The position numbers were made by a program, and so were the translations under genes. Shown piece by piece: positions 715 through 22,023 of a stretch of DNA of 22,134 bases. Under the pieces are notes generated by a model. The model ran no database searches. It was not told the origin of the DNA and saw only the letters and a list, made by a program, of their open reading frames with translations. Every line of letters begins with the position of its first letter. Positions within the stretch are counted from its first letter, which is position 1. This DNA is from a virus (lineage: Duplodnaviria; Heunggongvirae; Uroviricota; Caudoviricetes): the IMG/VR virus record IMGVR_UViG_2671180864_000007; one strand, given 5' to 3'.

Positions 715-797
715 CTTAATCCAAGAACATACTCCCTACCTATAGCAAAATCACTTTTTTAACAAAAGAATAACGTATTTAGGTAATCATTACGAAT

Positions 798-3888: not shown

Positions 3889-3899
3889 NNNNNNNNNNN
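3889..3899. other. Assembly gap (N run) inside the stf repeat region
   Basis: 11 N; the flank 3318-3888 is identical to 5060-5630. Confidence 0.9.
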
Positions 3900-5047
3900 A
3901 CATCATTCCCCGTAAAATACGGAAACCTGTCTGCCGCAGTAGCAAGCCCCGCCAGCGCCGTCAGGGTGGCATCTTTCGGTTGCTTACCCGCAAGCGCGTT
4001 AGTCATGGTGGTCGCAAAATTCGGGTCGTTGCCCAGCGCCGCAGCCAGCTCGTTCAGCGTGTTCAGTGCATCAGGTGACGAATCTACAAGGGCGGCAATC
4101 GCAGCCATAACGAAAGCCGTGCTTGCGATTTGGGTATTATTCGTTCCCTGTCGCGCAGTTGGTGTTGTTGGCGTTCCGGTCAGTGCAGGACTATTTAAGG
4201 GCGCTTTCTTGTTCGTTTCACCCATTACCGCCTTAACCGCTTTTGGCGTTGCCGCCAGTGACTCGGAAGTGCTGTTGGTCGCACTGCTGAGCTGTACTAT
4301 CCCCTTTTTCGTCGTGCTCGCATCCTCAAGCGCCACGGCGGATGCAATATCCTCTGCCCGTTTTGCTGCTGTCTCGGCGCGCGTTGCCGCGGATTCAGCA
4401 GCAACTTTGCTCTGAGATGCAGCCGTCGCACTGCCTGCCGCCTCTGATGCTTTCGTTGTTGCTGTCGTGGCACTACCTTTCGCTGCTGACGCTTGTCTGG
4501 TCGCCTCATCTTTTGAAGCAGACGCAGATGATGCCGATGACGCCGCTGAACTGGCTGACGATGCGGCTGCTGCCTTAGAGGAAGCAGCATTGTCTGCTGA
4601 AGTCTTTGCATTTGTTTCAGAGGTTTTTGCTGCAGAAGCAGACCTCGCTGCTGCAGTGGCTTGCTCAGTGGCTTTGCCAGCCTTCGTTGTGGCTGTTGAA
4701 GCGGATGATGCGGCGCTTTCTGCCGATTTTCCGGCGGCGGTGGCACTGGCTGAGGCCTGCCCGGCACTTGTTGACGCGGCACTGGCAGATAATGCAGCCG
4801 CTGTTTTTGAACCTGCCGCAGCTGAGGCGCTCTGTCCCGCTGCTGTTTCAGAAGACTTAGCGTTCGTCTCGGACGTTTTTGCCGCCTTCGCGGAATTTCC
4901 TGCCGCCGTTGCCGAGGAAGCTGCACTACTGGCACTTGATGATGCATTCGTTTCTGACGTTTTCGCGGCACTGGCGCTGGTAGCTGCCGCGCTTTTTGAT
5001 GACTCTGCAGCAGCACTTTTTGCTGCTTCACGGGCCTTTGTCGATGC
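3900..5047 (-). CDS. stf: Stf internal segment (Ala-rich repeats then the lambda-like central region ...[57 protein letters not shown]...FTGND), bounded by gaps on both sides
   Basis: Hand translation of the 1379-4336 ORF frame upstream of 4336 stays open and gives ...[38 protein letters not shown]...[17 protein letters not shown]. Confidence 0.6.
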
Positions 5048-5059
5048 CNNNNNNNNNNN
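5048..5059. other. Assembly gap (N run) inside the stf repeat region
   Basis: N run; the flank below it matches 7199-7265 and the flank above matches 3318 onward. Confidence 0.9.
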
Positions 5060-6204
5060 GACGATGCGGCAGCCGTTTTTGAGGATTCTGCACGGGTTTC
5101 CGACGCTTTCGCGTTCGTTTCGGATGTCTTCGCTGCGGAAGCTGACCTCGCTGCTGCCGTGGCCTGCTCAGTGGCTTCGCCAGCCTTCGTTGTGGCTGTT
5201 GAAGCGGATGATGCGGCGCTTTCTGCCGATTTTCCGGCGGCGGTGGCACTGGCTGAGGCCTGCCCGGCACTTGTTGACGCGGCGCTGGCAGACGACGCAG
5301 CCGCTGTTTTTGAGCCTGCCGCAGCTGAGGCACTCTGTCCCGCTGCCGTTTCAGAAGACCTGGCGTTCGTCTCGGACGTTTTGGCCGCCTTCGCAGAATT
5401 TGCAGCCGCCGTCGCCGAGGAAGCTGCGCTACTGGCGCTTGATGATGCGTTCGTTTCTGATGATTTTGCCGCCTCTTTTGAAGCCGACGCATCCCGGGCT
5501 GAGGTGGCAGCTTCTGACGCTTTCGTGGTCGCGGTGGATGCAGAAGTGGCTGCTGATTGTTGTGACGCTGCCGCATTCGTTTCTAACGTTTTCGCCGCAC
5601 CGGCACTGGTAGCCGCCGCGCTTTTTGAGGACTCTGCAGCGGCAGCACTTTTTGAGGCTTCAGTGGCCTTTGTTGATGCCGTTCCTGCGCTGGAAGACGC
5701 TGACTGAGCCGACGAAGCGGCCTGTCCGGCTGACGTGCTGGCTGCACGTGCTGAATCTGCAGCATCAGTCGCATGGGTTGCCGCCTCACGGGCTGATGTG
5801 CTGGCATCGCTGGCTGATTTCTTCGCGGCTGCCGTGTTCTGTGCCACCGCGGACGCGTTACGCGCCACCTCTTCCACCATCAGCTCAAAACGGCGCAGTG
5901 CCTCCGGACGGGCATCATCCTCCGTCATGGCACCGAGAAAATCATTCAGCGTACCGGGTCGGGAATCTTCATACACGGTGATGGTCCCGGCATGTGACGG
6001 CGGGAATCCTTCCACCAACAGAATAACGCTGTACTGACCGTACTCAACGTCCATGCTGTAACGCCCGGCTTCATCCGGATTTTCTGAGGCCAGCGTGTTC
6101 ACCACCACCGTGGTGCTGTTACGTTTTGCTTTCAGCTGGATTGTGCAGTTCTGTACCGGTTTTCCTGTGCCGTCTTTCAGTACACCTGAAATCTTTACTG
6201 CCAT
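5060..6204 (-). CDS. stf: Side tail fibre Stf, 5' portion (lambda-like N-terminus MAVKISGVLKDGTGKPVQNCTIQLKAK...), 3' end cut by the N run at about 5048-5059
   Basis: ATG at 6202-6204 (the ORF track starts 6 nt upstream at GTG); N-terminal domain followed by the Ala-rich repeat region. 5060-5630 is identical to 3318-3888. Confidence 0.7.
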
Positions 6205-6214
6205 ATTCACCCCA

Positions 6215-6242
6215 CAAAAAAGCCCGCCTGAACCGGCGGGCT
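6215..6242 (-). terminator. Intrinsic terminator upstream of the stf start (second copy of the 10033-10060 element)
   Basis: Same sequence as 10033-10060. Confidence 0.5.
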
Positions 6243-6302
6243 GTCATAACACTGTGTTACCTGGCTAATCAGAATTTATAACCGACACCCACGATGAAAC
6301 CG

Positions 6303-6526
6303 TCAGTGCGCCAGAGACGTGTTGCTGTGGCGACCGTCATCACTTCCGGTCAGCACATCGTGCGTTTTCCCCTTATTGTCAGTTACGCGGATATAATCCC
6401 CGGAAAAAGTCGACACACGGCTGTAAGCCACACCCGCCATCGCATACGCGCTGAACCATTCATTCACGCGCACAGACGGCCCCGCCATCACGCTGAACCA
6501 GCGGTTACGCACGGAATCTTCATGCC
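6303..6526 (-). pseudogene. lom: Lom fragment (3' part with the same internal deletion as the copy at 10121-10603), joined to stf repeat sequence at N 6527
   Basis: 6260-6526 is identical to 10078-10344; ORF 6303-6512 reads ...RHSNTSLAH*. Confidence 0.55.
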
Positions 6527-6527
6527 N

Positions 6528-7768
6528 GTCGCACTGCCTGCCGCCTCTGATGCTTTCGTTGTTGCTGTCGTGGCACTACCTTTCGCTGCTGACGCTTGTC
6601 TGGTCGCCTCATCTTTTGAAGCAGACGCAGATGATGCCGATGACGCCGCTGAACTGGCTGACGATGCGGCTGCTGCCTTAGAGGAAGCAGCATTGTCTGC
6701 TGAAGTCTTTGCATTTGTTTCAGAGGTTTTTGCTGCAGAAGCAGACCTCGCTGCTGCAGTGGCTTTGCCAGCCTTCGTTGTGGCTGTTGAAGCGGATGAT
6801 GCGGCGCTTTCTGCCGATTTTCCGGCGGCGGTGGCACTGGCTGAGGCCTGCCCGGCACTTGTTGACGCGGCACTGGCAGATAATGCAGCCGCTGTTTTTG
6901 AACCTGCCGCAGCTGAGGCGCTCTGTCCCGCTGCTGTTTCAGAAGACTTAGCGTTCGTCTCGGACGTTTTTGCCGCCTTCGCGGAATTTCCTGCCGCCGT
7001 TGCCGAGGAAGCTGCACTACTGGCACTTGATGATGCATTCGTTTCTGAAGATTTCGCTGCCTCTTTTGAGGCCGCCGCACCCCGTGCCGAGGTGGCAGCT
7101 TCTGACGCCTTCGTGGTCGCTGTGGATGCAGAAGTGGCTGCCGATTTTTGTGATGCTGCGGCATTCGTTTCTGACGTTTTCGCGGCACTGGCGCTGGTAG
7201 CTGCCGCGCTTTTTGATGACTCTGCAGCAGCACTTTTTGCTGCTTCACGGGCCTTTGTCGATGCCGTTCCTGCGCTGGAAGACGCTGACTGAGCCGACGA
7301 CGCGGCCTGTCCGGCTGACGTGCTGGCGGCACGTGCTGAGGCTGCAGCATCGGTTGCATGAGTTGCCGCCTCGCTGGCTGATTTTTTCGCGGCTGCCGTA
7401 TTCTGTGCAACCGCGGAGGCGTTACGTGACACCTCTTCCACCATCTGCTCAAAGCGGCGCAGTGCCTCCGGTCGGACATCATCCTCCGTCATGGCACCGA
7501 GAAAATCATTCAGCGTACCTGGTCTGGAACCTTCATAGACGGTAATGGTCCCGGCATGTGAAGGCGGAAAACCTTCAACCAGCAGGGTGACGCTGTACTG
7601 ACCATGCTCAACATCCATGCTGTAACGTCCGGCTTCATCCGGATTTTCAGAGGCCACCGTGTTCACCACCATCGTGCTGCTGGTTCGTCTGGCCTTCAGC
7701 ACAATGGTGCAGTTCTGTACTGGTTTTCCTGTGCCATCTTTAAGCACGCCAGAAATTTTTACTGTCAT
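6528..7768 (-). CDS. stf: Side tail fibre Stf, 5' portion (variant N-terminus MTVKISGVLKD...), 3' end cut at the ambiguous base 6527
   Basis: ORF 6488-7768 encodes the Stf N-terminal domain plus the Ala/Ser/Thr-rich repeat region (...[40 protein letters not shown]...). Confidence 0.7.
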
Positions 7769-7781
7769 ACTTTTCCACCAA

Positions 7782-7814
7782 TAAAAAAAGCCCGCAGCAG
7801 TGACGCCACGGGCT
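7782..7814 (-). terminator. Intrinsic terminator between lom and stf (copy Y)
   Basis: Minus strand: agcccg...cgggct hairpin followed by TTTTTTT; the stem is short and the loop long, so this is weaker than the other terminators. Confidence 0.4.
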
Positions 7815-7919
7815 TCAGGACAGTGTAACTTTACGTTTCCTCAAACGCAGTTCACCCCATAAGGTGGATGAACCTGCGTATCATAACAATATTTACAGAA
7901 GATAAATCGGCGTCTGTTG

Positions 7920-8519
7920 TCAGATACGGTATCCGATACCAACAATAAATGCATCCGTTCGCCAGTCACCACTACCGGAACCTTCATAAGCAAGGTCAAT
8001 GGTCACGGATTCGGTCGGGTTAAACTGCACGCCAGCCCCCCACGCCAGAGACGTGTTGCTGTGGCGACCGTCATCACTTCCGGTCAGCACATCGTGCGTT
8101 TTCCCCTTGTTGTCAGTTACGCGGAGATAATCCCCGGAGAAAGTCGACACACGGCTGTAAGCCACACCCACCATCGCATACGCGCTGAACCATTCATTCA
8201 CGCGTACAGACGGCCCCGCCATCACGCTGAACCAGCGGTTACGCACGGAATCTTCATGCCAGCGGGTATCGCTGTAGTGCGTTTTTTGCTCATCCTCAGC
8301 ATTGGCATAACTGAAGGACGTAATCAGCCCCAGCGCGTCCGTAAACTCATAACGGTATTTCACGTTAATCCCGTTCAGATTATCGCTGCCGGGAGCGTTC
8401 GTACGGGCATGAAGATACCCCGCGCTCAGTGTGGACTGATGTTCAGACGCCCATGCAGGCGCACCGGATACGGCCAGGCAAATGGCTGCGGACAAAATGG
8501 CTGCACAAACTTTACGCAT
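7920..8519 (-). CDS. lom: Lom outer membrane protein (Ail/Lom/OmpX family), intact copy
   Basis: 199-aa ORF with signal peptide MRKVCAAILSAAICLAVSGAPAWA and the beta-barrel C-terminus ...DAFIVGIGYRI; matches lambda Lom. Confidence 0.88.
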   Translation of the reverse strand: MRKVCAAILSAAICLAVSGAPAWASEHQSTLSAGYLHARTNAPGSDNLNGINVKYRYEFTDALGLITSFSYANAEDEQKTHYSDTRWHEDSVRNRWFSVMAGPSVRVNEWFSAYAMVGVAYSRVSTFSGDYLRVTDNKGKTHDVLTGSDDGRHSNTSLAWGAGVQFNPTESVTIDLAYEGSGSGDWRTDAFIVGIGYRI

Positions 8520-8542
8520 AATTACCTCTCGCTTTTCTGCAA

Positions 8543-8567
8543 TAAAAAAGGCGCCATTTCTGGCGCC
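8543..8567 (-). terminator. Intrinsic terminator between J (copy B) and lom
   Basis: Minus strand: stem ggcgcca / tggcgcc with loop gaaa, followed by TTTTTTATT. Confidence 0.55.
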
Positions 8568-8586
8568 CGTATATGGGTTATAAAAT

Positions 8587-9916
8587 TCAGCTGATACTGA
8601 TGCCTGCGGTGGCTTTCTTCATCACCACAACCAGCAAATCGCTGATACTTGCTGTGGGATACCAGTTATTCACCAGCCATGCTGACACCGAAAACTCCAG
8701 CGTCATGTGGCCGCGACCAGCTGGCATATCAATAACACCACTGTAAATCAGCGTATTATCCAGCGCGGTACGGTTATAAATTTCAGCACCGTTTTTCCGT
8801 ACTATCAGGCGGCATGACGAATAAATATCGTTATTCTCCCGCTCATGTTTAGCGCCGCTGAATGCCACCGCCGGAATAACAATTTGCCTGTCAAAAGGCT
8901 GATCGTCATAAATCCTGACGGTAATGGTCCCTGATGGCCACCGCTCCGGTGCCCGGGAGTCCCGCGGAAAAGCCTTACCCACTGTTTTGACTATATCGCC
9001 TTCAATCTGGTTGGCTGACAGTTTCCCCTTAATCTGACAGTTCTCATTAATTGTGACATTGTTGAGCGTCCCGGCGTTCGCATTCACACTGCCACTGATA
9101 TCTGCATTTTTAGCGGTCAGTTTTCCGTCCGGTGTCAGGGAAAATGCCGGAGGATTACCGCCGCTGGTAATGGTGGGAGCCGTCAGGCGTTTCAGGAACA
9201 CGTCGTTCATGAATATCTGATCGCCCTGACCAACAAACATCGGCTTTGTGTTGCCATTCGCAGGATTAATCATCGCAATCCTGTCTGCCGCCAGCAGCAC
9301 CTGACTCTGCATTCCTGCTGGCGTATTCTCAATACCGGCACCGATACCCGCAATATAAAGGCGTCCGTCCTTCATCTGTTGCAGCTTCACAGCCCACATG
9401 CTGTTCAGATTATTATTTGTATCAACCTGAACCTTCTGTATCTGCTGGATTGCCGCACTCTGGTCTTTCAGTTTCTTATTGACAGTCTGCGTGATTTCAT
9501 TGCTGACATCCGTAATGGACGTCCTGATTTCAGCCAGGTCAGGCGCAAGCTGACCGTTATCAATCTGCGTCCACAGCTCCTGAGCCAGATGTGTTTTCCC
9601 TATCTCTCCTTTGAAAAAATCCAGGTAACCTTCCGCATCATCGCTCGCCCGACCGACAGCCTCCACGAATGCCGATTTGCCAACGGTGTTCACACTGCGA
9701 ACGTAAAAATAATAATCATGGCCCGGTTTGATATTGATACTGGCGGCTATCCAGTACAGCGCCGTGCCAAGATAGCGGGCGCTGGTTTCAACCTGCCTGA
9801 TATCCGCAATCCGCTTTTCCGAGAACCAGAACTCAAACTGTACCGTCGGGTCATAAACGGCAAGATGCGGCGTTGCGGTTATCTGAAAATAGCCCGGCGT
9901 CAGCTCAATCCGCGAC
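8587..9916 (-). CDS. J: Second J 3' fragment (5' end cut by the gap) with a different C-terminal (putative receptor-binding) domain from the J at 10674
   Basis: [44 protein letters not shown]... is near-identical to the J at 11100-12000 up to ...NENC.IKG, then diverges over the last 145 aa or so (8587-9024). Confidence 0.7.
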
Positions 9917-9927
9917 NNNNNNNNNNN
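9917..9927. other. Assembly gap (N run) at a repeat boundary
   Basis: 11 N; the flank at 9928 onward is identical to 6110 onward (stf 5' end) and the other flank is the J 3' region. Confidence 0.9.
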
Positions 9928-10022
9928 GTGGTGCTGTTACGTTTTGCTTTCAGCTGGATTGTGCAGTTCTGTACCGGTTTTCCTGTGCCGTCTTTCAGTA
10001 CACCTGAAATCTTTACTGCCAT
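9928..10022 (-). CDS. stf: Side tail fibre Stf, 5' end only (truncated by the N run at 9917-9927)
   Basis: ATG at 10020-10022 preceded by GGGGTGA; encodes MAVKISGVLKDGTGKPVQNCTIQLKAK..., the lambda Stf N-terminus. Identical to 6110-6204. Confidence 0.6.
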
Positions 10023-10032
10023 ATTCACCCCA

Positions 10033-10060
10033 CAAAAAAGCCCGCCTGAACCGGCGGGCT
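10033..10060 (-). terminator. Intrinsic terminator immediately upstream of the stf start
   Basis: Minus strand: stem agcccgcc / ggcgggct with a 6-nt loop, followed by TTTTTT; 14 nt before the stf ATG. The same element recurs at 6215-6242. Confidence 0.55.
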
Positions 10061-10120
10061 GTCATAACACTGTGTTACCTGGCTAATCAGAATTTATAAC
10101 CGACACCCACGATGAAACCG

Positions 10121-10603
10121 TCAGTGCGCCAGAGACGTGTTGCTGTGGCGACCGTCATCACTTCCGGTCAGCACATCGTGCGTTTTCCCCTTATTGTCAG
10201 TTACGCGGATATAATCCCCGGAAAAAGTCGACACACGGCTGTAAGCCACACCCGCCATCGCATACGCGCTGAACCATTCATTCACGCGCACAGACGGCCC
10301 CGCCATCACGCTGAACCAGCGGTTACGCACGGAATCTTCATGCCAGCGGGTATCGCTGTAACGGGTCAGCTGGCGATTCTTGTCTCCTGCATAGCTGAAT
10401 GACGTCACCAGCCCCAGCGTATCCGTAAACTCATAACGGTATTTCACGTTAATCCCGTTCAGATCATCACTGCCGGGAACGTTGGTCCGGGCATGAAGAT
10501 ACCCCGCGCTCAGCGTGGACTGATGTTCAGACGCCCATGCAGGCGCACCGGATACGGCCAGGCAAATGGCTGCGGACAAAATGGCTGCACAAACTTTACG
10601 CAT
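10121..10603 (-). pseudogene. lom: Lom (Ail/OmpX-family outer membrane protein), copy with an internal deletion of about 88 bp and a premature stop
   Basis: 160-aa ORF identical in the N-terminal part to the intact copy at 7920-8519, ending ...SNTSLAH*. The Lom C-terminal sequence DGFIVGVGYKF* follows out of frame at about 10096-10120, missing about 29 aa plus a frameshift. Confidence 0.7.
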
Positions 10604-10625
10604 AATTACCTCTCGCTTTTCTGCA

Positions 10626-10651
10626 ATAAAAAAGGCGTCATTCCTGACGCC
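10626..10651 (-). terminator. Intrinsic terminator between J and lom (copy 1)
   Basis: Minus strand: stem ggcgtca / tgacgcc with loop ggaa, followed by TTTTTTATT; it lies between the J stop (10674) and the lom start (10603). Confidence 0.55.
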
Positions 10652-10673
10652 ATTTATTGGGGTTATAAATATT

Positions 10674-13600
10674 TCAACGAATACTGATGCCGGAAGCCGC
10701 TTTTTTGGTCACAATCACCGTACAGTCGGTGATATTGCCTGCCCCCTGATTGCCTTTCTGGAAAATCTTAAACTCCAGAGTGACGCTACCACCACCACTA
10801 GGCATATCAATAACTGCACTGTAACTACCGGGAATGGCACCTTTAGTTTCTCTGGATGCGATTAATACGCCGTTTTTGCGAACTTCAAAACCATAACCCG
10901 TGTATCGCGTGCCTCCTGGGTTATTTCCGCTCCCCGGATCGTCATACGCTATACCGTTAAAAATAATGGGCGGAATAATAATCTGGCGGTCAAAGTTATG
11001 ATCATCGCTTATGGTGACTGTAACCGTCCCGTTTGGTGTTTCCGTGTTACCCCACGTACCAGCCTGTTTCGGAAATGATTTGGATACAGCTTTAACGAAG
11101 TCACCTCTGACCTGAGTCGCCTCCAGCATGCCCTTAATCGTACAGTTTTCATTTACCGTGACATTGTTGAGCGTCCCGGCGTTCGCATTCACACTGCCAC
11201 TGATATCCGCATTTTTAGCGGTCAGCTTTCCGTCCGGAGTCAGGGAAAATGCCGATGGATTTCCACCGCTGGTAATGGTGGGGGCCGTCAGGCGTTTCAG
11301 GAACACGTCGTTCATGAATATCTGATCGCCCTGACCAACAAACATCGGTTTTGTGTTGCCATTCGCAGGATTAACCATCGCAATCCTGTCCGCCGCCAGC
11401 AGCACCTGACTCTGCATGCCGTCAGGGGTGTTCTCAATACCGGCACCAATACCCGCGATATAAAGGCGTCCGTCCTGCATCTGCTGCAGCTTCACAGCCC
11501 ACATGCTGTTCAGGTTATTATTTGTATCAACCTGAACCTTCTGTATCTGCTGGATTGCCGCACTCTGGTCTTTCAGTTTCTTATTGACAGTCTGCGTGAT
11601 TTCATTGCTGACATCCGTAATGGACGTCCTGATTTCAGCCAGGTCAGGCGCAAGCTGACCGTTATCAATCTGCGTCCACAGCTCCTGAGCCAGATGGGTT
11701 TTCCCTATCTCGCCTTTGAAAAAATCCAGATAACCGGATGCATCATCACTCGGCTGACCAACAGCCTCCACGAATGCCGATTTGCCAACGGTGTTCACAC
11801 TGCGGATATAAAAGTAATAATCATGGCCCGGTTTGATATTGATACTGGCGGCTATCCAGTACAGCGCCGTGCCAAGATAGCGGGCGCTGGTTTCAACCTG
11901 CCTGATATCCGCAATCCGCTTTTCCGAGAACCAGAACTCAAACTGTACCGTCGGATCATAAACCGCAAGATGCGGCGTGGCGGTTATCTGAAAATAGCCC
12001 GGCGTCAGCTCAATCCGCGACGGTGCTGCCGGTGCGGCAATCCGGAAGGTGGTGGTGGCAGGTTCACCCTGCTGGCCATAGCTGTTTATCGCCCGCACCG
12101 TCAGGGTGTATTCCCCGAGCGGCAGGCCGCTGAAACGGTGCTCCGTGTCTGCGGTGATGGCGGTGGTCACCAGTCTGGCATCCGTTCCCTTACCACTGGT
12201 CAGGCGCAGACTGAAGCGCACACCCTTCACCACCCGCGGCGTGTCCCATTTCGCCTGCGCCAGATACTGGCCGTCAGGTGCTGCACTGCCGGTGGGATGA
12301 CGCTGTTCAGGGAACCTGACTGCGGCTCAAAGCGGGCACCGTTATCCACGATGGCTTCTTTTTCCAGTACGTGCTGCACCGCCGTGATGGCAAAGGTGCC
12401 GTCCGTGTTTTCCCGGACGGAGACACAGCGGAACAGGCGACGGCGCAGTGACGGCAGGGAGAGTCCCCACACCCCGTATGTCTCCACACCATCAGGCAGG
12501 GTACTGACCTGTATCCGGTCCGGCGCGGGGTGTTCGGTGATGTCCACACTCACCGGCTTACCGCTGCCGTTAATCAGGTTCACCGTGGCGGCACCGGTCT
12601 CCGGAAGTGTCACTTCACGGTCCAGCGTCAGAGTGCGGGTGGCAGCATCAATGGACAGGACACGTCCGCCGGTCAGGGTCCCGGCATAGTCGTTATCACA
12701 GATTTCAATGATGTCACCGGGTGTGTGCCGCAGCCCCTGAGACCCGAGCGTGAAATCCACCGTCTGCGTTTCCAGCAGTTCGGTCTTTATCACCCACAGT
12801 CCGGCACGGTGGGCCTGACCGCGGCTGGTACAGCCGAACGCGTCCATCTTCAGCAGGTTGCGTCCGTAGCGCAGTATGGCTTCCGGGTCTTCCACCAGTT
12901 CCGTGGAGGTCTGCCAGCCGTTCTGCGGGTCGGTATAATTCACCTCCACCGCCGTGTGCCGGTCCTTCAGGGCACTGAAGCTGTAGCGGAAACCCACGCC
13001 GTTATCATCCACCACCACATCGCTGTTGGTGTACGGCCACACCACATCCGACGGGCGGTCCTGAACAAACGTCAGCGTCTGGCCGTTCCATACCGGCATA
13101 CAGCGCATCGCCGAGCAGAAATCACTGAGCACGTCCCATGCCTTACGCTGTTGTGCCAGGTACGCATTGAAGGTCATCCGCGGCTCGGTCTCCCCGAAAC
13201 TATCCGGGACCGTCTGGTCGCAGTACTGCCCGATGGCATACAGCGCCCACTTGTCCACATCCGCCGCCCCCAGACGTTTTCCCATGCCGTAGCGCGGGTG
13301 AGTCAGCATGTCCCACAGACACCAGGCCGGATTGTTGCTGTATGCCGGTTTCAGGCTGCCGTCCCAGATACCACTGTACGTGCGTTTTTCCGGGTCATAG
13401 TTTGACGGCACCTGGATGATGCGACCGCGGATATGGTAGTTCACCGTCATCTGCTGGCCGCCGAACTGCTCCGCATCCACCTGCAGCCCCACAATGGCCG
13501 TGTTCGGGTAGCACTGTTTCACATCGATGATTTCGGTGTATGACGACCACAGCGTCTTATTCTGCAGCTGGTCCGTGGTGCTGTCCGCTGTCTCCCGGAC

Positions 13601-14143
13601 CATCCGGATGTTAAAAGGACGGGGAGGCAGATTATCCAGAATCACCGACGCCAGAAACTGCGAGGTGGTCTTGCCGTTAATGGTGACATCCTTTTCTGTC
13701 ACCCAGTTACCGTTACGCTGTAACTGAATCAGCAGGCGGACGGATGTCGGGTTTCGGTCACCCTTTGACGTGGTCTGCACCAGTGACTGCACCCCGAAGG
13801 TAACCCGCAGGCGGTCAATGTTCGCGGACGTAATGGTGCGCGTCACCGGTTTTGCCTTCGTCACTTCCACGCCCAGTCCGGTTTCAGCACCGGAGGACTC
13901 AAAGCCTTCCGGTGGTGTCTGCTCCTGCTCCCCGGCGCGTCAGACCGCCGTCACACCGTGTATCACGGGATTACCGTCCGTGTCCGTCAGCGGGGTTTTG
14001 TTCACCAGGATACTCTGCAGTCCCTTCACCGGACCTTCTATCAGTCCCTCACCAATCGCATCAATCACGCTCATCATCTGCGTGGATTTGAGATTATCCT
14101 TCGCCTCACGAGGCGTGTGTGCCTTACCGCCACCTTTTCCCAT
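10674..14143 (-). pseudogene. J: Central tail fibre / tail tip protein J, disrupted as sequenced: in-frame TGA at 13940-13942 and a frame change within about 12230-12275
   Basis: Three collinear ORF pieces (13940-14143, 12227-13870 extended upstream, 10674-12233) each match lambda J segments (MGKGGGKAHTPREAKDNLKSTQ...; ...TRTITSANIDRLRVTFGVQ...; ...[41 protein letters not shown]...). Pieces 1 and 2 share a frame and are separated only by TGA; piece 3 is in the -1 frame. The last 150 aa or so diverge from lambda. Confidence 0.7.
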
Positions 14144-14249
14144 ACAGCCTTCCCCTGAATAAATTAACCGCCACTTGCCATTCCGTACAGAAGTCGGATA
14201 TCCTTCGCCCGAAAAGCATGAAACACATTTCTGCCATGCTAAAGAGAAA

Positions 14250-14282
14250 CCCCGGTATCAGCAGATACCGGGGTTTTCTTTC
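14250..14282. terminator. Bidirectional intrinsic terminator-like hairpin in the I-J spacer
   Basis: 10-bp stem ccccggtatc / gataccgggg (14250-14259 and 14264-14273) with a 4-nt loop, flanked by AAAGAGAAA upstream and TTTTCTTTC downstream, so a U-rich tail follows on either strand. Confidence 0.5.
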
Positions 14283-14346
14283 ATGCCCACCGATAATCCT
14301 GTTGGTTAAAACCGGTAATGGCATAAAAATTCTGAATATCTTCACA

Positions 14347-14376
14347 TTTTCACAAACTGACTGTGGCGCGTATAAT
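14347..14376 (+). promoter_or_regulatory. Candidate sigma70-type promoter on the plus strand (consensus -10 TATAAT at 14371-14376, weak -35)
   Basis: Perfect TATAAT hexamer in an AT-rich stretch; an alternative extended -10 TGATATAAG lies at 14400-14408. About 65-95 nt upstream of the plus-strand terminator at 14441-14479. Confidence 0.3.
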
Positions 14377-14440
14377 TTCTCTGCGTTAATTTTTTTGTCG
14401 TGATATAAGAATAATTCCTTACACTTAATCTTCGTAACTC

Positions 14441-14479
14441 TCCCGCAGTTCCTGTCCGCGATCACTGCGGGATTTTTTT
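14441..14479 (+). terminator. Plus-strand intrinsic terminator in the I-J spacer
   Basis: Stem tcccgcagt / actgcggga (14441-14449 and 14464-14472) followed by TTTTTTT (14473-14479); there is no U-tract on the minus strand. Confidence 0.5.
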
Positions 14480-14486
14480 ATTCTTT

Positions 14487-15167
14487 TTACCCCTGCCGCC
14501 CGATAACCACGACCTTTCCGCCCCCGCCTTCATCACGGGTGCTGATGTCCTGGGATATACGGCGGGAGCCAACCAGCATTTCCCCGTAAGGCACCGGCAT
14601 CGGGTTCCCCTGGGCAATCATGTTATCCAGTGAGGAAAAGTACGTGTTCTGTCTGCCGTTATCCGTTGCGCGGTAATCCGGTGTTTTTGCCTTCGGGGCC
14701 AGCATCTGGGCCACACCGCCCAGAATCATGCTGGCTCCAAGTGAAAACAGCATCGTGGTGGCAGAAAAACCACCGGCTGCCAGGGCTGAACCCCATAACG
14801 CCATTGATGCCCCGGCAGTGAAGAAAGAGCCCACGATGGCTGCCGCCCCCAGCACAATCTGCAGTCCACCCTTTCCGGCCCCGGCCAGTCGCGGCACAAT
14901 GTGGATGACCGTTCCCTCACCCAGCTGTTCGTGAAGACGGGCGTACACCGCCTCCGGTGCCGTGTCATAACCGGCAATACGTATCTGGTACCAGCCTTCG
15001 TTCATCTGACGGCGAAAGCCCGGCATCTGCATCGACAGGGCGCGAATGGCTTCCGCTGCCGTGTTCACATACAGGCTGAGGCGGCGGCCAAATCGTTGTA
15101 AATCCCCGTGAAGGCAGATGCGTGCCAGTGGCGGTGACGCCAGACTGAATGCGTTCGTCGTTGCCAT
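14487..15167 (-). CDS. I: Tail tip assembly protein I
   Basis: 226-aa ORF MATTNAFSLASPPLARICLHGDLQRFGRR..., collinear with lambda I, including the Gly/Ala-rich hydrophobic segment. Confidence 0.9.
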   Translation of the reverse strand: MATTNAFSLASPPLARICLHGDLQRFGRRLSLYVNTAAEAIRALSMQMPGFRRQMNEGWYQIRIAGYDTAPEAVYARLHEQLGEGTVIHIVPRLAGAGKGGLQIVLGAAAIVGSFFTAGASMALWGSALAAGGFSATTMLFSLGASMILGGVAQMLAPKAKTPDYRATDNGRQNTYFSSLDNMIAQGNPMPVPYGEMLVGSRRISQDISTRDEGGGGKVVVIGRQG

Positions 15168-15808
15168 TTTTCGGAATACCTCTCCCGTTTACTCAGTTGT
15201 TCAGGCAGATGGTGAAGCAGCTCACCGTTGCCGCAGTAAATGGCGGCATGGTTCGGTACCGAAGCACCAAAGCAGCACAGCAGAATATCGCCCGCCTGTG
15301 CAGAGGACAGGGGCACCCGGTAAAAGCCGGTGACCGCCATATTGTCCAGGTAAAGGTTCTGACCGTTGCGCCACCAGTCATCCTCGCGATGAAAATCCGG
15401 CATTTCAGTCCCCGCCAGATGATAAGCATCCCGGAACAGCGTGTAACAGTCCGTCACCCCGTGCTCAAAGCGCCGTCCTGTCAGATGTGGCACACAGCGG
15501 AATTTGTGAATGTCACCCCGGCAGACCAACCACCAGGGCAGTGCGCTTTTTATCTGCAACCGCCGGTCAGCCTCGCTCAGCCAGGGCAGCCCACCGGGAT
15601 GACTGTGGACCAGTGCCACAATCTCCCCCTGCATCTCTGCCCGCAGCCAGTCTTCCGGTGCGATACGAAAATACGCCTCCGGCTCTGCGGAAATATTCAC
15701 ACAAGGGATATACCGCTCCCCCTCCGGCGTGCTTATCACGAAGCCGCACGACTCCGCAGGCGCACACCGCCGGGCATGTGCCAGAATCGCTGATTCAGTC
15801 TGTGTCAT
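15065..15808 (-). CDS. K: Tail tip assembly protein K (JAMM/MPN metalloprotease-like N-domain plus NlpC/P60-like C-domain)
   Basis: Start placed at the internal ATG (15806-15808) giving MTQTESAILAHARR..., the lambda K N-terminus; the longer ORF-track version overlaps L out of frame. Contains E...HSHPGGLPWLSEAD (JAMM-like) and a downstream Cys/His region. 247 aa, with the 3' end overlapping I by about 100 nt as in lambda. Confidence 0.85.
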   Translation of the reverse strand: MTQTESAILAHARRCAPAESCGFVISTPEGERYIPCVNISAEPEAYFRIAPEDWLRAEMQGEIVALVHSHPGGLPWLSEADRRLQIKSALPWWLVCRGDIHKFRCVPHLTGRRFEHGVTDCYTLFRDAYHLAGTEMPDFHREDDWWRNGQNLYLDNMAVTGFYRVPLSSAQAGDILLCCFGASVPNHAAIYCGNGELLHHLPEQLSKRERYSEKWQRRTHSVWRHRHWHASAFTGIYNDLAAASACM

Positions 15809-15818
15809 AAACCGGGAT

Positions 15819-16517
15819 TTACTGCGAAAGTTTATTAATGGAAAGGAAACCGCCAAAATTGCCGACATTCCTGCGCAGTTCACACCCGCGCATGCACTTG
15901 CTGCATCTGTCCTTACGGATATCCGTGGTGGGGTTGTCGAACTCATCCGCCACCGCAGGACCGTTATACCCGCATTCATCTCCCCGGTAATCCCACATAC
16001 AGGTGTTCGCCAGCATGATGCGACCGGGAAACAGCGCCCCGTCCGTCTCGGTCGGTGTAGCCAGCACAAACGAGGCCGTCATGGCTGTCAGCTGCGACAT
16101 CTGCTCCACCACCCAGCGGTCACTCAGCTCCTGCTCCGGGTCCGCCTCCGGATTGCCCGCAACGAAATTCACCGCATCCAGAAAACGGGCATACACCCGG
16201 CGGCGGACCACCGTGGCCCCCACCAGACTCTGCAGGTCTTCCGCCATCCCGGTGACCAGACCGAACAGATTGGACACCGTCAGCGACGGTCTGGCACTGC
16301 TGCCCCGGCCGTTCATCTCAAAGCCGCTGCCGTCAATCGGGTATGCCTCATACTTACGCCCCTGCCAGGTGACCGGCTCCCCTTTTTCATTCAGCTCATT
16401 ACAGAAAAAATACCGCTCACCACCCTGTACCGTCAGGTCGATTTCCCAGAGTACCACCCGCGGTGACTGCTCTGACTTAACCGACTCGTTCAGACTTTCT
16501 TCGCGAATATCCTGCAT
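15819..16517 (-). CDS. L: Minor tail protein L
   Basis: 232-aa ORF MQDIREESLNESVKSEQSPRVVLWEIDLT...GGFLSINKLSQ, matching lambda L. Confidence 0.92.
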   Translation of the reverse strand: MQDIREESLNESVKSEQSPRVVLWEIDLTVQGGERYFFCNELNEKGEPVTWQGRKYEAYPIDGSGFEMNGRGSSARPSLTVSNLFGLVTGMAEDLQSLVGATVVRRRVYARFLDAVNFVAGNPEADPEQELSDRWVVEQMSQLTAMTASFVLATPTETDGALFPGRIMLANTCMWDYRGDECGYNGPAVADEFDNPTTDIRKDRCSKCMRGCELRRNVGNFGGFLSINKLSQ

Positions 16518-16846
16518 CAGTTCACCACCTGCTTAAACTCCGCGCTGAACTCAACGCGCAACATCCCGACCCGCGCAGACCACCCGGCACAGGTCACCTT
16601 TATCTGCCGGTATGCATAGGGTGGCTTCCACAAAAATGCCTTCCAGCCACCGTGCTCTGCCAGGAACGCTTCCAGATGCCGGGCCTCCTCCCGGGTCACG
16701 GAAAGCGTCACCCTGTATGTTTTCAGGTCAGCATTCAGCCCTGCCGCCATACGCTGTGAGTACCCGTCACCAAAACGCACTTCACGCACCGATGGCTGCG
16801 AGTTCACCTCCATATCCGGCTTCACTTTCCAGCGAAAGGTTTTCAT
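16517..16846 (-). CDS. M: Minor tail protein M
   Basis: 109-aa ORF MKTFRWKVKP...EFSAEFKQVVN, near-identical to lambda M. Confidence 0.92.
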   Translation of the reverse strand: MKTFRWKVKPDMEVNSQPSVREVRFGDGYSQRMAAGLNADLKTYRVTLSVTREEARHLEAFLAEHGGWKAFLWKPPYAYRQIKVTCAGWSARVGMLRVEFSAEFKQVVN

Positions 16847-19416
16847 CCACCGCTCCCTGATAACATACCGCCATCACGCAACTGCAGCCGGAGTTCATCC
16901 TGTGCCCCCTTGCGGGCCATCTCATACACCGCTTTCATCAGCTGCGGCCCTGCCCGCCCGTTGGGGCCGTCGTTCTGAATCACCACGTGATTGTTCTGAT
17001 TAAAATTAATGCCTTCCGCCCGCCGCATCTGCGCCGGACTTCCGGCACCGCCGACATAACCACCTTCCGCATAGCCCCGCATCAGGCGGTACAGATTGCC
17101 GACACCAATCCGGCTGGTCGCCTCCTTCGTGAAGACAAACTCCCCGCGATGAACAATCCCCGCAGGTTCATATTTACCCCCCGTCCCCGTAAATCCCCCG
17201 GTCGCGAAATGGAAGTTCGCCGCCGCAGCCTGAATGGCCGTCCCCGTGGAGGCAGACGCACCACCACCGAAAGCACCGCCAATGGCGCTGCCGATACTCC
17301 CGACTATCCCCACCATCGCCTGCTTCAGAAAAATCTCTGTCAGCATGGACAGCACAGAACGGGTGAAACCACGCCAGTTCTGTTCGCTGCCGATCAGCAT
17401 CGCTGCCATATTCTGTGCAATACCGTCAAAGGTCTGCGTGGCCGCGTTTTTAACCTGCGAAAAACTGTCCGTCGCACTTTCCGCCCACTCGCCCCAGCCG
17501 GACTTCATCCCGGCCATCCAGCTTCCACGAAGCTGCTCCTCCGCAGACCAGGTGTTCTTCAGTGCAGATGTGGCCTTCGCCAGCGCAGCCGGATTATCAC
17601 CGTACACCTCACGAAGGCGCTGCTCTTCCGACTCCCGCTGCGCCTGACGGTCGGTGAGTCCGCGGGCTTTTGCGCTGATTGCCGCCTGCTTCGCGCTCTG
17701 CTGCTGTTCAAACCGCGCCGCCTGCTGTGCCAGCTCATTCAGCCGTTTCTGGTGTTCAATCTTGTCGCCCAGCTCAGCCAGCTGGCGTTTGTACTCCAGC
17801 GTTTCTTTCTCATGGGCCAGCAGGGATTTTTCCTGCTCAGATAACTGCCGTTTCGTGGCGGCCTCTTTCAGGACCACATACTGATTTTCCGCTTTCCATA
17901 AATCACGGCGCTGCTGGCTGATTTTTTCATTCGCACCGCTGTGCTTCTCCAGCGTCCTGAGCTCAGTTTCAAGCGCCAGCAGGGCTGCATGCGCCTGGTC
18001 TTCCTGGCGCTCACCGGCAGACACCTTCACACCGGACGGCTTTTTCTGCGTCGACTCATAATCCTTTTTTGCCGACGCCATCAGCGTGTTGTAATCCGCC
18101 TGCAGGATTTTCCCGTCTTTCAGGGCCTTATTCAGCTCTTCCTGCCGGGCGGTATATTTCTCCAGTGGCGTCAGCAGGCGCTCATACGCCTTCTGCGCCT
18201 CTCCGGTATACTTCAGCTGTGACGACTCACGCTCAGCCCTGTCCCTTGCCGCCAGTTCACCGGCTTTTTCCATATCCGACTGCAGCGTTGCCGCTGCCAG
18301 ACCCAGACGGGCATTTTCCCGGTCATCCCATGCGCCCTGAAGGTTGGCCCGGAAAGAGGAGGTTTTACCGCGGCGCTGGCTCCGACTCTGGTACCACTGC
18401 CATTTTTTATCCGCCTCATCAAATGCCTTCTGCGCACTGGCGAGCATATCCGCTGAGGATTCCGGACGACCGATATCCAGAATGGCATCCCACATCGATT
18501 TGAATGCCTTCCCTGTTTTATCCGCCCAGGTCTCCAGTGTTCCCATGTTTTCTTTCAGGCGACGGGTCTGCTCATCAAAGCCTTTCGTGGCGATATCGTT
18601 CGCCGCCTGCAATGCCCCGGCCTCGTCTCCGGAACGCTGCAGCTGTGCAACATACGCAATCTGCTCTGCCGTCACGTTACGGAACTGGCGCGCCATCGCC
18701 ATCAGTCCCGACGTCGGGTCAGTGGTCAGCTTCCCGAAGGCTTCAGCGACTTTATCCACCTCCACACCGGATGCAGACGCAAAACGCGCGACACTCTGGT
18801 TGATGGCATCAAACTGTTCACCACCACGCACACCGGCATTCACCAGGGCTGCCAGTGACTCTCTCGCCTGGTTAAACGTCAGCCCTGCTGCCTGCCCGGC
18901 TCTTGAGAGAGTCAGCATACGATCGGCAGTCAGTCCGGACTGATTACCGGAAAGAACCAGGGTTTTATTAAACGCTGAAAGCGTGGAATCTCCCTGGTAC
19001 CAGGCGTACACCAGTGCACCTGTCGCCACCGCCAGCGAGGTGACCCCGACCATCGGCAGGGTGATCGCATCGGCAAGCCCCCTGAACATGGGGATCATCC
19101 CGCCGAAGGAGTCCTTCACCTGACCGCCCTGTTGCAGCAGGATCAGCCAGGGATTCTGACCACCGGCAAGCTGCGTGGCGATATCCGTAAACTGTGCGGG
19201 CAGGGTTCGCATGGCCGCTTTATACTGCCCGACGGAAATCCCGGCTTTTTGTGCAGCCAGCGCCTGGCGGCTCAGGCCCTGTTCAACAGCACTGGCGGTT
19301 TTTCTGGCGTCGGTATCCAGACCTGAAAAATGACGCCTTACCCGGCTCATCTGCTCATCGAAACGGACAGCATCCAGACTCAGGTCAATAACAAGATCAC
19401 CAACCGGCTGGGACAT
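16843..19416 (-). CDS. H: Tail tape measure protein H
   Basis: 857-aa ORF collinear with lambda H (853 aa as recalled): MSQPVGDLVIDLSLDAVRFDEQMSRVRRHF...; ATG at 19414-19416 preceded by GGGAGGTG; stop overlaps the M start. Confidence 0.93.
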   Translation of the reverse strand: MSQPVGDLVIDLSLDAVRFDEQMSRVRRHFSGLDTDARKTASAVEQGLSRQALAAQKAGISVGQYKAAMRTLPAQFTDIATQLAGGQNPWLILLQQGGQVKDSFGGMIPMFRGLADAITLPMVGVTSLAVATGALVYAWYQGDSTLSAFNKTLVLSGNQSGLTADRMLTLSRAGQAAGLTFNQARESLAALVNAGVRGGEQFDAINQSVARFASASGVEVDKVAEAFGKLTTDPTSGLMAMARQFRNVTAEQIAYVAQLQRSGDEAGALQAANDIATKGFDEQTRRLKENMGTLETWADKTGKAFKSMWDAILDIGRPESSADMLASAQKAFDEADKKWQWYQSRSQRRGKTSSFRANLQGAWDDRENARLGLAAATLQSDMEKAGELAARDRAERESSQLKYTGEAQKAYERLLTPLEKYTARQEELNKALKDGKILQADYNTLMASAKKDYESTQKKPSGVKVSAGERQEDQAHAALLALETELRTLEKHSGANEKISQQRRDLWKAENQYVVLKEAATKRQLSEQEKSLLAHEKETLEYKRQLAELGDKIEHQKRLNELAQQAARFEQQQSAKQAAISAKARGLTDRQAQRESEEQRLREVYGDNPAALAKATSALKNTWSAEEQLRGSWMAGMKSGWGEWAESATDSFSQVKNAATQTFDGIAQNMAAMLIGSEQNWRGFTRSVLSMLTEIFLKQAMVGIVGSIGSAIGGAFGGGASASTGTAIQAAAANFHFATGGFTGTGGKYEPAGIVHRGEFVFTKEATSRIGVGNLYRLMRGYAEGGYVGGAGSPAQMRRAEGINFNQNNHVVIQNDGPNGRAGPQLMKAVYEMARKGAQDELRLQLRDGGMLSGSGG

Positions 19417-20268
19417 ATCTCACACCTCCCGGAATCCCCGCTGAAGCCATCATTAATGCGGCATCATCCACCATGACATCCGCCACATCCGCAGACGATA
19501 AAATATCGCGCCCTCCGTCCCCACCGAACCGGACGCCTCCGGCAAGTCCTGCCGCTTTCTGCATCAGCATTTTGTCCTCATCCGGCCTCTCCACCTGCTC
19601 TTCCTCATGCCGGGGGACAAGCAGACTGAAATCAGAGGGATGCATATCCGGATCGCAAAAAAACAGGCTGAGTACAGCGTACGTCAGCCCGGAAAAATGC
19701 ATATCCAGCTGGGTATCCTGAAAATAATGCGTGCGGTAAAAACGGCGCCAGTCGGCATATTCGGTGGATGTCATCCCGGCAAGCATGGCGCGCCAGTCGG
19801 GTCTCCCCATCTCACGCGCCAGTCTGAGGGCAAAGTTCAGCTCGCCGTCGAAGACTTTCCCGCAGAAAAATCATCATCAGTCAGCGTGTTATTTTTCGCC
19901 ACTTCAGTAATATCAGTATCCGGACGAACAGCTTCGATCATCCCGGACAGGCACAACACCACGTCTTCCGCCCGGGCAATGGCATCGGCAGGCCAGGTGG
20001 TGAGCACTTCCTGCTCTATCTTCATCACGGCCTCATTCATTGACGGTGACTGCGTTTTCTGTGGATGGTTATGCCACAGGGACATCGCCACCAGAAACGC
20101 GCCGGTTCTGACGAGATCTTCCACGCTTACCTGCAGGTTGCCGCTGGATTCTGCCTGTTCTGCACGCCGTTTCAGGAGGGCAAGATGCTCGATACGCTGC
20201 AGCGCAGACAATTCGGAAAGCGTGACAGACACACCGTTATATTCAAATTGTTCTGTTTTCAGAAACAT
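19397..20268 (-). CDS. T: G-T fusion tail assembly chaperone made by programmed -1 ribosomal frameshift (G frame to 19855, then T frame to the stop at 19397-19399)
   Basis: The T-frame ORF (19397-19810 in the ORF track) is open upstream to the slip site and lies in the -1 frame relative to G (codon low coordinates 1 mod 3 to 2 mod 3). The heptamer GGGAAAG sits 17 nt before the G stop, as in lambda. Confidence 0.8.
19837..20268 (-). CDS. G: Tail assembly chaperone G
   Basis: 143-aa ORF MFLKTEQFEYNGVSVTLSELSALQRIEHLAL... matching lambda G; strong SD (GGAGGT) upstream; ends ...SAGKSSTAS with the GGA-AAG codons inside the slippery site. Confidence 0.9.
   Translation of the reverse strand: MFLKTEQFEYNGVSVTLSELSALQRIEHLALLKRRAEQAESSGNLQVSVEDLVRTGAFLVAMSLWHNHPQKTQSPSMNEAVMKIEQEVLTTWPADAIARAEDVVLCLSGMIEAVRPDTDITEVAKNNTLTDDDFSAGKSSTAS
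19855..19861 (-). other. Slippery heptanucleotide G GGA AAG for the G/G-T -1 programmed frameshift
   Basis: Forward sequence ctttccc at 19855-19861 is GGGAAAG on the minus strand; the zero frame reads GGA-AAG (Gly-Lys near the G C-terminus). Confidence 0.8.
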
Positions 20269-20281
20269 GTATTACCTCCGT

Positions 20282-21034: not shown

Positions 21035-21041
21035 ATCGTCC

Positions 21042-22009: not shown

Positions 22010-22023
22010 AATTCACCCTGCGT

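What the first reader, a model, noticed from the sequence alone, without database searches (positions are those of the whole stretch)
8587..11130. Two alternative J C-terminal domains on an otherwise near-identical J backbone
The J 3' end at 10674-11129 and the second J fragment at 8587-9024 share near-identical sequence up to ...[26 protein letters not shown] and then diverge completely over the last 145-151 aa. In lambda, the J C-terminus is the receptor-binding region that recognises LamB. Both tips here also differ from the lambda tip as I recall it, so they probably specify different receptors. This is the signature of modular host-range exchange, either between co-resident prophages or as a duplicated cassette.
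Basis: partly seen in the sequence, partly recalled or inferred. Interest (0 to 1): 0.45.

Follow-up and report, generated by a model that had tools for sequence, protein, structure and literature searches.

The report
Two prophage J tips, mis-scaffolded together
The two different phage tail-tip (J) endings are real, already-known receptor-binding variants from two separate prophages of Shigella sonnei, and they sit side by side here only because a short-read assembly interleaved the two prophages.

Summary
A J 3' end (10674-12021) and a second J fragment (8587-9916) are about 95% identical over 891 nt, then differ over the last 145-151 codons, then converge again at the stop codon and lom.

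Two corrections apply. The tips are not unrelated: they share 40% aa identity (E 1e-30), and both are full-length Pfam Ig_GpJ_C receptor-binding domains. The adjacency is an assembly artefact:
- The window is contig CXDC01000070.1 of GCA_001258035.1.
- The J' piece is bounded by N runs (9917-9927 and 6527).
- The sequence outside those gaps is exactly duplicated (6110-6526 = 9928-10344).

In finished S. sonnei 53G the two tips lie about 550 kb apart:
- Prophage P1 has an intact 1165-aa J ending in tip A, followed by a truncated lom.
- Prophage P2 has a J pseudogene (W68*, 22-bp deletion) ending in tip B, followed by an intact lom.

The window's "full" J is itself a P2/P1 chimera, switching at 11980-12021, exactly where the J' contig begins. 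Its 519-aa product occurs in no other assembly.

Tip A is 95% identical to the phage 434 tip, which uses OmpC. Tip B matches the "1A2" gpJ tip, which is also OmpC-dependent.

Verdict: known biology (modular J tips in co-resident prophages) plus a scaffolding artefact. Low interest.

The parts
10674..11129 (-). Tip A: J receptor-binding domain (151 aa plus stop), 434-type. It belongs to S. sonnei prophage P1.
   Evidence: Pfam Ig_GpJ_C, 94.7 bits, profile positions 1-134 of 135. 95% aa identity to the Lambda h434 imm21 J tip. 100% identical to the end of the intact 1165-aa J of S. sonnei 53G P1. Matches lambda gpJ residues 988-1131 in PDB 8iyk.
11130..12021 (-). J backbone copy A (second Ig-like domain, helical shaft and central straight fibre). 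P1-like up to 11979. The switch to P2 lies in the identical stretch 11980-12021.
   Evidence: There are no mismatches to P1 (L007) from 11131 to 11552, and 47 of the 50 mismatches to P2 (L016) lie at 11140-11979. Only 3 mismatches to P2 occur from 11980 to 22134, and dense mismatches to P1 begin at 12022.
12022..14143 (-). N-terminal two thirds of the P2 J pseudogene, with W68* (stop codon at 13940-13942) and a 22-bp deletion near 12277 between CTGACGG repeats.
   Evidence: Searches show both lesions. The same 67-, 547- and 513-aa ORF pattern is present in finished S. sonnei genomes. The window aligns to L016 over this stretch without gaps.
10121..10603 (-). Truncated lom of P1 (160 aa, ~83-bp internal deletion).
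   Evidence: Pfam Ail_Lom, profile positions 1-159 of 199. Complete E. coli genomes span 1556 bp against the 1473-bp query. The exact protein lies directly between J and stf in finished S. sonnei genomes.
9928..10344 (-). P1 segment (stf start, terminator, lom 3' part) that appears twice in the scaffold. It is an exact copy of 6110-6526.
   Evidence: 417 bp at 100% identity, running from one gap edge to the other. The segment is single-copy in S. sonnei 53G at L007 10260-10676.
9917..9927 (.). Scaffold gap (11 N) at the 5' end of the J' fragment.
9025..9916 (-). J backbone copy B. This is the true continuation of the P2 J pseudogene. Its upper end corresponds to position 12021 of copy A.
   Evidence: The contig 6524-9916 is 99.5% identical to P2 of 53G. 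The 443-aa translation is 100% contained in the P2 513-aa ORF.
8587..9024 (-). Tip B: J receptor-binding domain (145 aa plus stop), '1A2'-type. It belongs to P2.
   Evidence: Pfam Ig_GpJ_C, 137.5 bits, profile positions 1-135 of 135. At least 124 of 145 aa are identical to the gpJ 1A2 tip, read from a machine-read supplement. 95-98.6% identity to tips of Stx2a phages and phage 2G7b. The J' fragment that contains it (8587-9693) matches PDB 9wca 'A8 gpJ 713' at E 1.8e-138.
7920..8519 (-). Intact lom of P2 (199 aa).
   Evidence: Pfam Ail_Lom, profile positions 1-198 of 199. A 199-aa lom follows the pseudo-J in the finished genomes.
6527..6527 (.). Single-N scaffold joint at the lower end of the inserted P2 contig (6528-9916).
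3889..5059 (.). A second interleaved piece. The P2 stf fragment 3900-5048 lies between two 11-N gaps, and the P1 flanks are exactly duplicated (3318-3888 = 5060-5630).
   Evidence: 3900-4969 is 99.2% identical to P2, while the flanks are 100% identical to P1.

Best explanation
The window is a chimeric short-read scaffold (GCA_001258035.1, contig CXDC01000070.1) of a Shigella sonnei isolate. It interleaves the tail-fibre ends of two separate lambdoid prophages.

- P1 carries an intact J ending in a 434-type receptor-binding domain (tip A), then a truncated lom, stf and tfa.
- P2 is a decayed prophage. Its J is a pseudogene (W68*, 22-bp frameshifting deletion) ending in a '1A2'-type receptor-binding domain (tip B), then an intact lom and stf.

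The two J genes are about 77% identical upstream. They become about 95% identical at the position equivalent to window 12021. There the assembler crossed from P2 into P1. The true P2 continuation (6528-9916) was left as a separate contig, and the scaffolder dropped it between two overlapping P1 contigs.

Biologically, each tip is the distal Ig-like domain of the trimeric central tail fibre. It binds an outer-membrane porin and thereby triggers tail opening. Both tip types are documented to use OmpC rather than LamB. Conserved flanks make the tip an exchangeable cassette by homologous recombination. Those flanks are the ...[11 protein letters not shown]...NENCxIKG stretch upstream and the stop codon, terminator and lom downstream.

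Shown: sequence relationships, domain identity and locus structure in finished genomes. Inferred: the assembly mechanism, the receptor, and exchange by recombination.
For: Gaps and duplicated flanks:
- N runs lie at 3889-3899, 5049-5059, 6527 and 9917-9927.
- Gap-edge to gap-edge exact duplications exist: 6110-6526 = 9928-10344 (417 bp) and 3318-3888 = 5060-5630 (571 bp).

Comparison with S. sonnei 53G:
- Window 1-3888, 5060-6526 and 9928 to about 11980 tile one P1 locus at 100% with exactly those overlaps.
- Window 11980-22134, 6524-9916 and 3900-4969 tile the P2 locus at 99.2-99.97%.
- The two loci lie at about 2.63 Mb and 2.08 Mb of HE616528.1.
- Tip A equals the end of P1's intact J, and the J' fragment lies within P2's 513-aa ORF, both at 100%.

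Other genomes and assemblies:
- All finished S. sonnei places shown have a single J, then lom, then stf.
- No place in 5,426 complete E. coli genomes covers both tips; the maximum coverage is 84%.
- The collapsed path is collinear with complete genomes.
- The chimeric 519-aa ORF exists in one contig only, of length 22,134, which is the window. Its component proteins occur in 560-1212 blocks.

Domain and receptor:
- Both tips are Pfam Ig_GpJ_C and match PDB lambda gpJ and A8 gpJ.
- Tip A is 95% identical to the h434 tip, and 434 uses OmpC (PMC11101478, PMC3509688).
- Tip B matches the OmpC-dependent gpJ 1A2 (PMC11338833).
Against: - No reads were available, so the mis-join is inferred from finished genomes of other S. 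sonnei strains, not from this isolate.
- The crossover inside contig 9928-22134 contains no N, so a real gene conversion in this isolate cannot be formally excluded.
- Within 11553-11887, six sites match P2 rather than 53G's P1. This could be strain variation or path mixing in the assembly graph.
- Receptor assignments rest on sequence identity to characterised tips, not on assays. The 1A2 comparison used machine-read DNA with errors, so the identity is a lower bound of about 86%.
Confidence: 0.9

Rival explanations
1. A genuine tandem duplication in this isolate: J - lom - stf' - J' - lom. It would act as a reservoir of an alternative tip for host-range switching.
For: The scaffold places the pieces adjacent and in the same orientation, and direct repeats flank the tips.
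Against: - The J' piece is joined only through N gaps.
- The flanks are exact duplicates that are single-copy in finished genomes.
- No inverted repeats of 40 nt or more exist in the window, so there is no inversion substrate.
- No complete E. coli genome and no finished S. sonnei genome shows this arrangement.
- J' has no 5' part or start, and the upstream J is a pseudogene.
Confidence: 0.03
2. The P2/P1 hybrid J (crossover 11980-12021) is a real inter-prophage recombination or gene conversion in this isolate. Only the placement of contig 6528-9916 is artefactual.
For: The crossover lies in uninterrupted sequence within a 42-bp identical stretch. Lambdoid prophages do recombine at such homologies (established knowledge).
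Against: - The displaced P2 continuation is still in the assembly and starts exactly at the crossover.
- The left end of the scaffold is P1 and the right end is P2, and these loci are 550 kb apart in 53G. A real join would imply a large rearrangement or deletion.
- The hybrid ORF is unique to this one assembly among the collection searched.
Confidence: 0.06
3. The two tips come from two different strains in a mixed or contaminated sample.
For: Interleaved near-identical sequences can arise from mixtures.
Against: Every finished S. sonnei genome examined carries both prophages with exactly these tips, so no mixture is needed.
Confidence: 0.01

Closest known systems
Phage 434 / lambda h434 J host-range tip (OmpC-binding)
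   Same: Tip A is 143/151 aa identical (95%) to it. It has the same junction with the conserved fibre shaft and the same downstream lom context.
   Different: It has eight substitutions. Here it sits on an S. sonnei prophage followed by a truncated lom. The receptor was not assayed here.
gpJ '1A2' and 'A8' chimeric tips of Brodel et al. 2024 (PMC11338833); PDB 9wca/9wcb 'A8 gpJ 713'
   Same: Tip B matches the 1A2 tip at 124 or more of 145 aa and aligns with A8 at about 60% (90 of 150 positions). The J' fragment carrying tip B matches the solved A8 gpJ chain at E 1.8e-138. The engineered fusion point (lambda J residue 964) lies in the same conserved stretch that bounds the natural divergence.
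   Different: The natural allele here sits on a pseudogenised J, so it is not expressed as a functional fibre. The exact identity is uncertain because the supplement text is machine-read.
Lambda gpJ receptor-binding domain (residues ~987-1132; PDB 8xcj, 8xck, 8iyk; LamB-binding)
   Same: Same Pfam domain (Ig_GpJ_C), same position at the C-terminus after the central straight fibre, and conserved core motifs (FDRQI, IDMP.G.G, KK...GIS).
   Different: Only 35.5% (tip A) and 43.1% (tip B) aa identity, with indels in regions aligning to loops. The expected receptor is OmpC, not LamB.
Repeat-induced chimeric contigs and misplaced repeat contigs in short-read scaffolds
   Same: Short N runs are present. 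Sequence is exactly duplicated on both sides of the inserted contig. The switch falls at the point where two repeat copies become near-identical. Both scaffold ends stop next to IS elements of the finished loci.
   Different: None found. The pipeline used for this assembly was not verified.

Membership tests
Lambda-type J C-terminal receptor-binding domain (Pfam PF12421 Ig_GpJ_C) | Full-length profile match above the curated cut-off | tested here: met
   Tip A scores 94.7 bits and tip B 137.5 bits against a cut-off of 26.2, covering profile positions 1-134/135 of 135.
Lambda-type J C-terminal receptor-binding domain (Pfam PF12421 Ig_GpJ_C) | Located at the extreme C-terminus of J, after the Ig_J_second and Phage_Tail_Tip (fibre) domains | tested here: met
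   The J' fragment has Ig_J_second at 2-101, Phage_Tail_Tip at 155-283 and Ig_GpJ_C at 312-442. Both S. sonnei J products have the same architecture.
Lambda-type J C-terminal receptor-binding domain (Pfam PF12421 Ig_GpJ_C) | Sequence homology to experimentally solved RBDs | tested here: met
   Tip A matches lambda gpJ 988-1131 (E 1.7e-17) and A8 gpJ (E 3.1e-26). The J' fragment carrying tip B (window 8587-9693) matches A8 gpJ (E 1.8e-138) and lambda gpJ (E 1.9e-116).
Lambda-type J C-terminal receptor-binding domain (Pfam PF12421 Ig_GpJ_C) | Trimeric Ig-like fold with bottom loops contacting a porin | not tested
   No structure prediction was run. The fold is inferred from homology (PMC11101478).
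434-type (OmpC) host-range tip | Near-identity to the tip that confers 434 host range on lambda h434 | tested here: met
   143/151 aa identical to OM418627 J.
434-type (OmpC) host-range tip | OmpC-dependent adsorption | not testable with these tools
   This rests on the literature for 434 (PMC11101478, PMC3509688).
1A2-type (OmpC) gpJ tip (PMC11338833) | Near-identity to the 1A2 C-terminal segment | tested here: met
   At least 124 of 145 aa are identical in a frameshift-tolerant alignment to the machine-read supplement DNA. This is a lower bound because of reading errors.
Genuine tandem or switchable alternative-tip cassette | Both copies physically contiguous on one molecule | tested here: not met
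   They are joined only via N runs with duplicated flanks. Finished genomes place them about 550 kb apart.
Genuine tandem or switchable alternative-tip cassette | Inverted repeats or a recombinase that could swap the tips | tested here: not met
   The window has 0 inverted-repeat pairs of 40 nt or more. No recombinase is called between J and tfa in the S. sonnei loci.
Assembly or scaffolding artefact | Inserted piece bounded by gaps, with exact duplication of the sequence outside the gaps | tested here: met
Assembly or scaffolding artefact | Finished genomes of the same species are collinear once the inserted pieces are removed, and the inserted pieces map elsewhere | tested here: met
Assembly or scaffolding artefact | The junction product is absent from independent assemblies | tested here: met
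   The chimeric 519-aa ORF is found only in CXDC01000070.1.
Assembly or scaffolding artefact | Read-level support is lacking across the joins | not testable with these tools
   Raw reads were not available.

The most novel reading that the evidence does not exclude
In this particular isolate a real inter-prophage recombination has grafted the C-terminal ~450 codons of P1's J (434-type tip) onto the P2 tail module, or has created a tandem array. That would catch host-range module exchange between resident prophages in the act.
Probability: 0.06. Interest if true: 0.3.

Novelty: already known. Interest (0 to 1): 0.08.

Why it matters
This matters little as biology:
- Modular exchange of the J receptor-binding domain at this exact conserved junction is textbook for lambdoid phages. 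It has already been exploited for engineering with lambda gpJ chimeras fused at residue 964.
- Both tip alleles are common. They occur in 1,877 and 2,788 of 5,426 complete E. coli genomes, and in isolated phages.

The useful outcome is a caution. Apparent tandem alternative-tip cassettes in draft assemblies of poly-lysogens can be produced by repeat-induced mis-scaffolding. N runs with duplicated flanks are the tell-tale sign.

One minor point of interest remains. S. sonnei keeps two different, probably OmpC-directed J tips, one on an intact J and one on a decayed J.

Tried and rejected
- Tandem-cassette or switch idea: rejected. There are no inverted repeats, no contiguity and no precedent in complete genomes.
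- 'Tips are unrelated domains': rejected.
- 'Window is E. coli ST131': the ST131 prophage is the best E. coli match for the right half (97.9%) and carries a tip of the tip-B type (window contig 6524-9916 aligns across it at 95.1%). But S. sonnei loci match at 99.5-100%.
- Sequencing-error explanation for the J stop codon and 22-bp deletion: rejected, because the same lesions are in finished S. sonnei genomes.
- A search for a paper on PDB 9wca 'A8 gpJ 713' found nothing.
- The direct DNA word search of the Brodel supplement failed because 1A2 is recoded. A frameshift-tolerant protein-to-DNA alignment solved this.
- Not attempted, because sequence evidence was decisive: structure prediction, fold search, and the large protein-database searches.
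Full report
**Layout of the window**

The minus strand carries a lambdoid tail module: H (16843-19416), M, L, K, I (14487-15167), J, lom, stf and tfa. The sequence contains four N runs: 3889-3899, 5049-5059, 6527 and 9917-9927. It is therefore a scaffold, not a contiguous sequence.

**Checking the observation**

I aligned 7900-9916 with 9928-12010.
- The backbone is 94.7% identical over 881 aligned nt.
- The tip is 53.8% identical.
- The stop/terminator spacer is 88.6% identical, and lom is 92.7% identical.

The tips are not unrelated, however. BLASTP gives 40% identity at E 1e-30. Both are end-to-end matches to Pfam PF12421, 'Tip attachment protein J, C-terminal receptor binding domain'. Both sequences searched against the PDB, tip A alone and the J' fragment that carries tip B, hit solved structures of lambda gpJ (tip A at residues 988-1131) and of 'A8 gpJ 713'. 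In lambda numbering the conserved stretch runs to about residue 986.

**The adjacency is an artefact**

Several independent lines agree.
- The J' fragment starts mid-gene directly at the 11-N gap.
- The 417 bp outside that gap (9928-10344) are repeated exactly at 6110-6526, ending at the single N at 6527.
- Likewise 3318-3888 equals 5060-5630, bracketing the piece 3900-5048.
- Removing the bracketed pieces gives a path collinear with complete genomes.
- In 5,426 complete E. coli genomes no place covers both tips. The best coverage is 84%, obtained by reusing the backbone.
- Each tip on its own is common within full-length gpJ genes: 1,877 and 2,788 genomes.

**Source and true structure**

The truncated 160-aa Lom is found in finished Shigella sonnei genomes: Ss046 CP000038.1, 53G HE616528.1 and 75/02 CP019689 (identities from PMC5447701). 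There it always lies between a J of 1151-1165 aa (split only in one fragmented assembly, L014) and stf.

The window's 857-aa tape-measure protein is found at a different S. sonnei locus. There J is split into 67-, 547- and 513-aa ORFs and is followed by a 199-aa Lom.

BLAST of the window against the two 53G loci gives the following.
- 1-3888, 5060-6526 and 9928 onward are 100% P1, tiling one locus with exactly the 571- and 417-bp overlaps.
- 11131-22134, 6524-9916 and 3900-4969 are 99.2-99.5% P2.

Mismatch positions place the switch inside contig 9928-22134 between 11979 and 12022. The upper end of the J' contig (9916) corresponds to position 12021. This is also where the two J genes go from about 77% to about 95% identity.

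Further checks agree.
- Tip A equals the end of P1's intact J at 100%.
- The 443-aa J' translation lies within P2's 513-aa ORF at 100%.
- The hybrid 519-aa ORF occurs in one contig only: CXDC01000070.1 of GCA_001258035.1, 22,134 bp, which is the window itself.
- Both ends of the window stop next to IS elements of the finished loci, as expected for a short-read assembly.

The CX-prefixed WGS sets cited in PMC5447701 are S. sonnei isolates of Holt et al. 2012. That this record belongs to the same batch is my inference.

**What the tips are**

Tip A is 95% identical to the tip of Lambda h434 imm21. It is 96-99% identical to the tips of phages Evi, ev207, Kati, Perceval and many Stx phages. Phage 434 and lambda carrying its J use OmpC (PMC11101478, PMC3509688).

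Tip B is 95-98.6% identical to tips in Stx2a phages, 2G7b and others, and 43% identical to lambda. A frameshift-tolerant alignment to the machine-read DNA in the supplement of PMC11338833 gives at least 124 of 145 identical residues to gpJ '1A2'. The '1A2' and 'A8' chimeras were tested against OmpC variants in a delta-lamB background. [quoted passage not shown] Both tips therefore probably target OmpC, not different receptor proteins.

**Mechanism (from the literature, inferred for these alleles)**

The trimeric RBD at the end of the central fibre inserts loops into the porin. Binding spreads the RBD bases and twists the straight fibre, which opens the tail tip (PMC11101478). The conserved flanks explain how tips are exchanged by homologous recombination among lambdoid phages.

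P2's J cannot make a fibre. It carries W68* and a 22-bp deletion, both present in finished genomes. P1's J is intact.

**Verdict**

These are real sequences and known biology, placed side by side by an artefact. Novelty: already known. Interest: low.

Noticed in passing
window 12022-14143 (stop codon 13940-13942; deletion near 12277): The J of prophage P2 is a pseudogene. It has a W68* nonsense codon and a 22-bp deletion between CTGACGG direct repeats. The same ORF pattern (67, 547 and 513 aa) is present in several finished S. sonnei genomes, so it is a fixed lesion and not a sequencing error.
   Followed up: yes
window 10121-10603: The lom of prophage P1 has an ~83-bp internal deletion that gives a 160-aa product. 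This exact protein is indexed in 1212 blocks of the public collection, and the complete genomes shown that could be identified are S. sonnei. It could serve as a lineage marker.
   Followed up: partly
window 838-1036 (-): There is an Rfam hit to IS009 (RF02111, 218.5 bits, full length) inside the tail-fibre assembly gene (798-1379).
   Followed up: no
window 14144-14486: A ~343-bp AT-rich spacer (about 46% GC against about 58% around it) lies between I and J, which abut in lambda by my recollection (not checked here). A spacer of the same length is present in the ST131 prophage (L001 11789-12131) and in S. sonnei P2. No gene is called there and its function is unknown.
   Followed up: no
window 11553-11887: Six sites in the otherwise P1-like J backbone match P2 rather than 53G's P1. 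This is either strain variation or path mixing in the assembly graph.
   Followed up: partly
window 1193-1255: A 63-bp segment in tfa is absent from S. sonnei 53G and Ss046 but present in other S. sonnei assemblies (L008, L012). The tfa products are 150 aa in 53G (none is called in Ss046) and 193 aa in the assemblies that keep the segment.
   Followed up: partly
window 3889-5059: The stf region shows the same artefact as J. A P2 stf fragment (3900-5048) is inserted between two overlapping P1 contigs, so any repeat or domain analysis of stf in this window would be misleading.
   Followed up: yes
window 8549-8568 and 10634-10651 (-): A terminator-like hairpin followed by a T run sits immediately after each J stop codon. 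In the two-copy alignment the spacer containing it is 88.6% identical between the copies. It forms part of the downstream flank of the tip cassette.
   Followed up: no
L001 967-2866 (E. coli ST131 prophage): In the ST131 relative of P2, a reverse-transcriptase gene and a SLATT-domain gene sit just beyond tfa. This looks like a candidate defence cargo at the prophage end. It is not present in the window.
   Followed up: no
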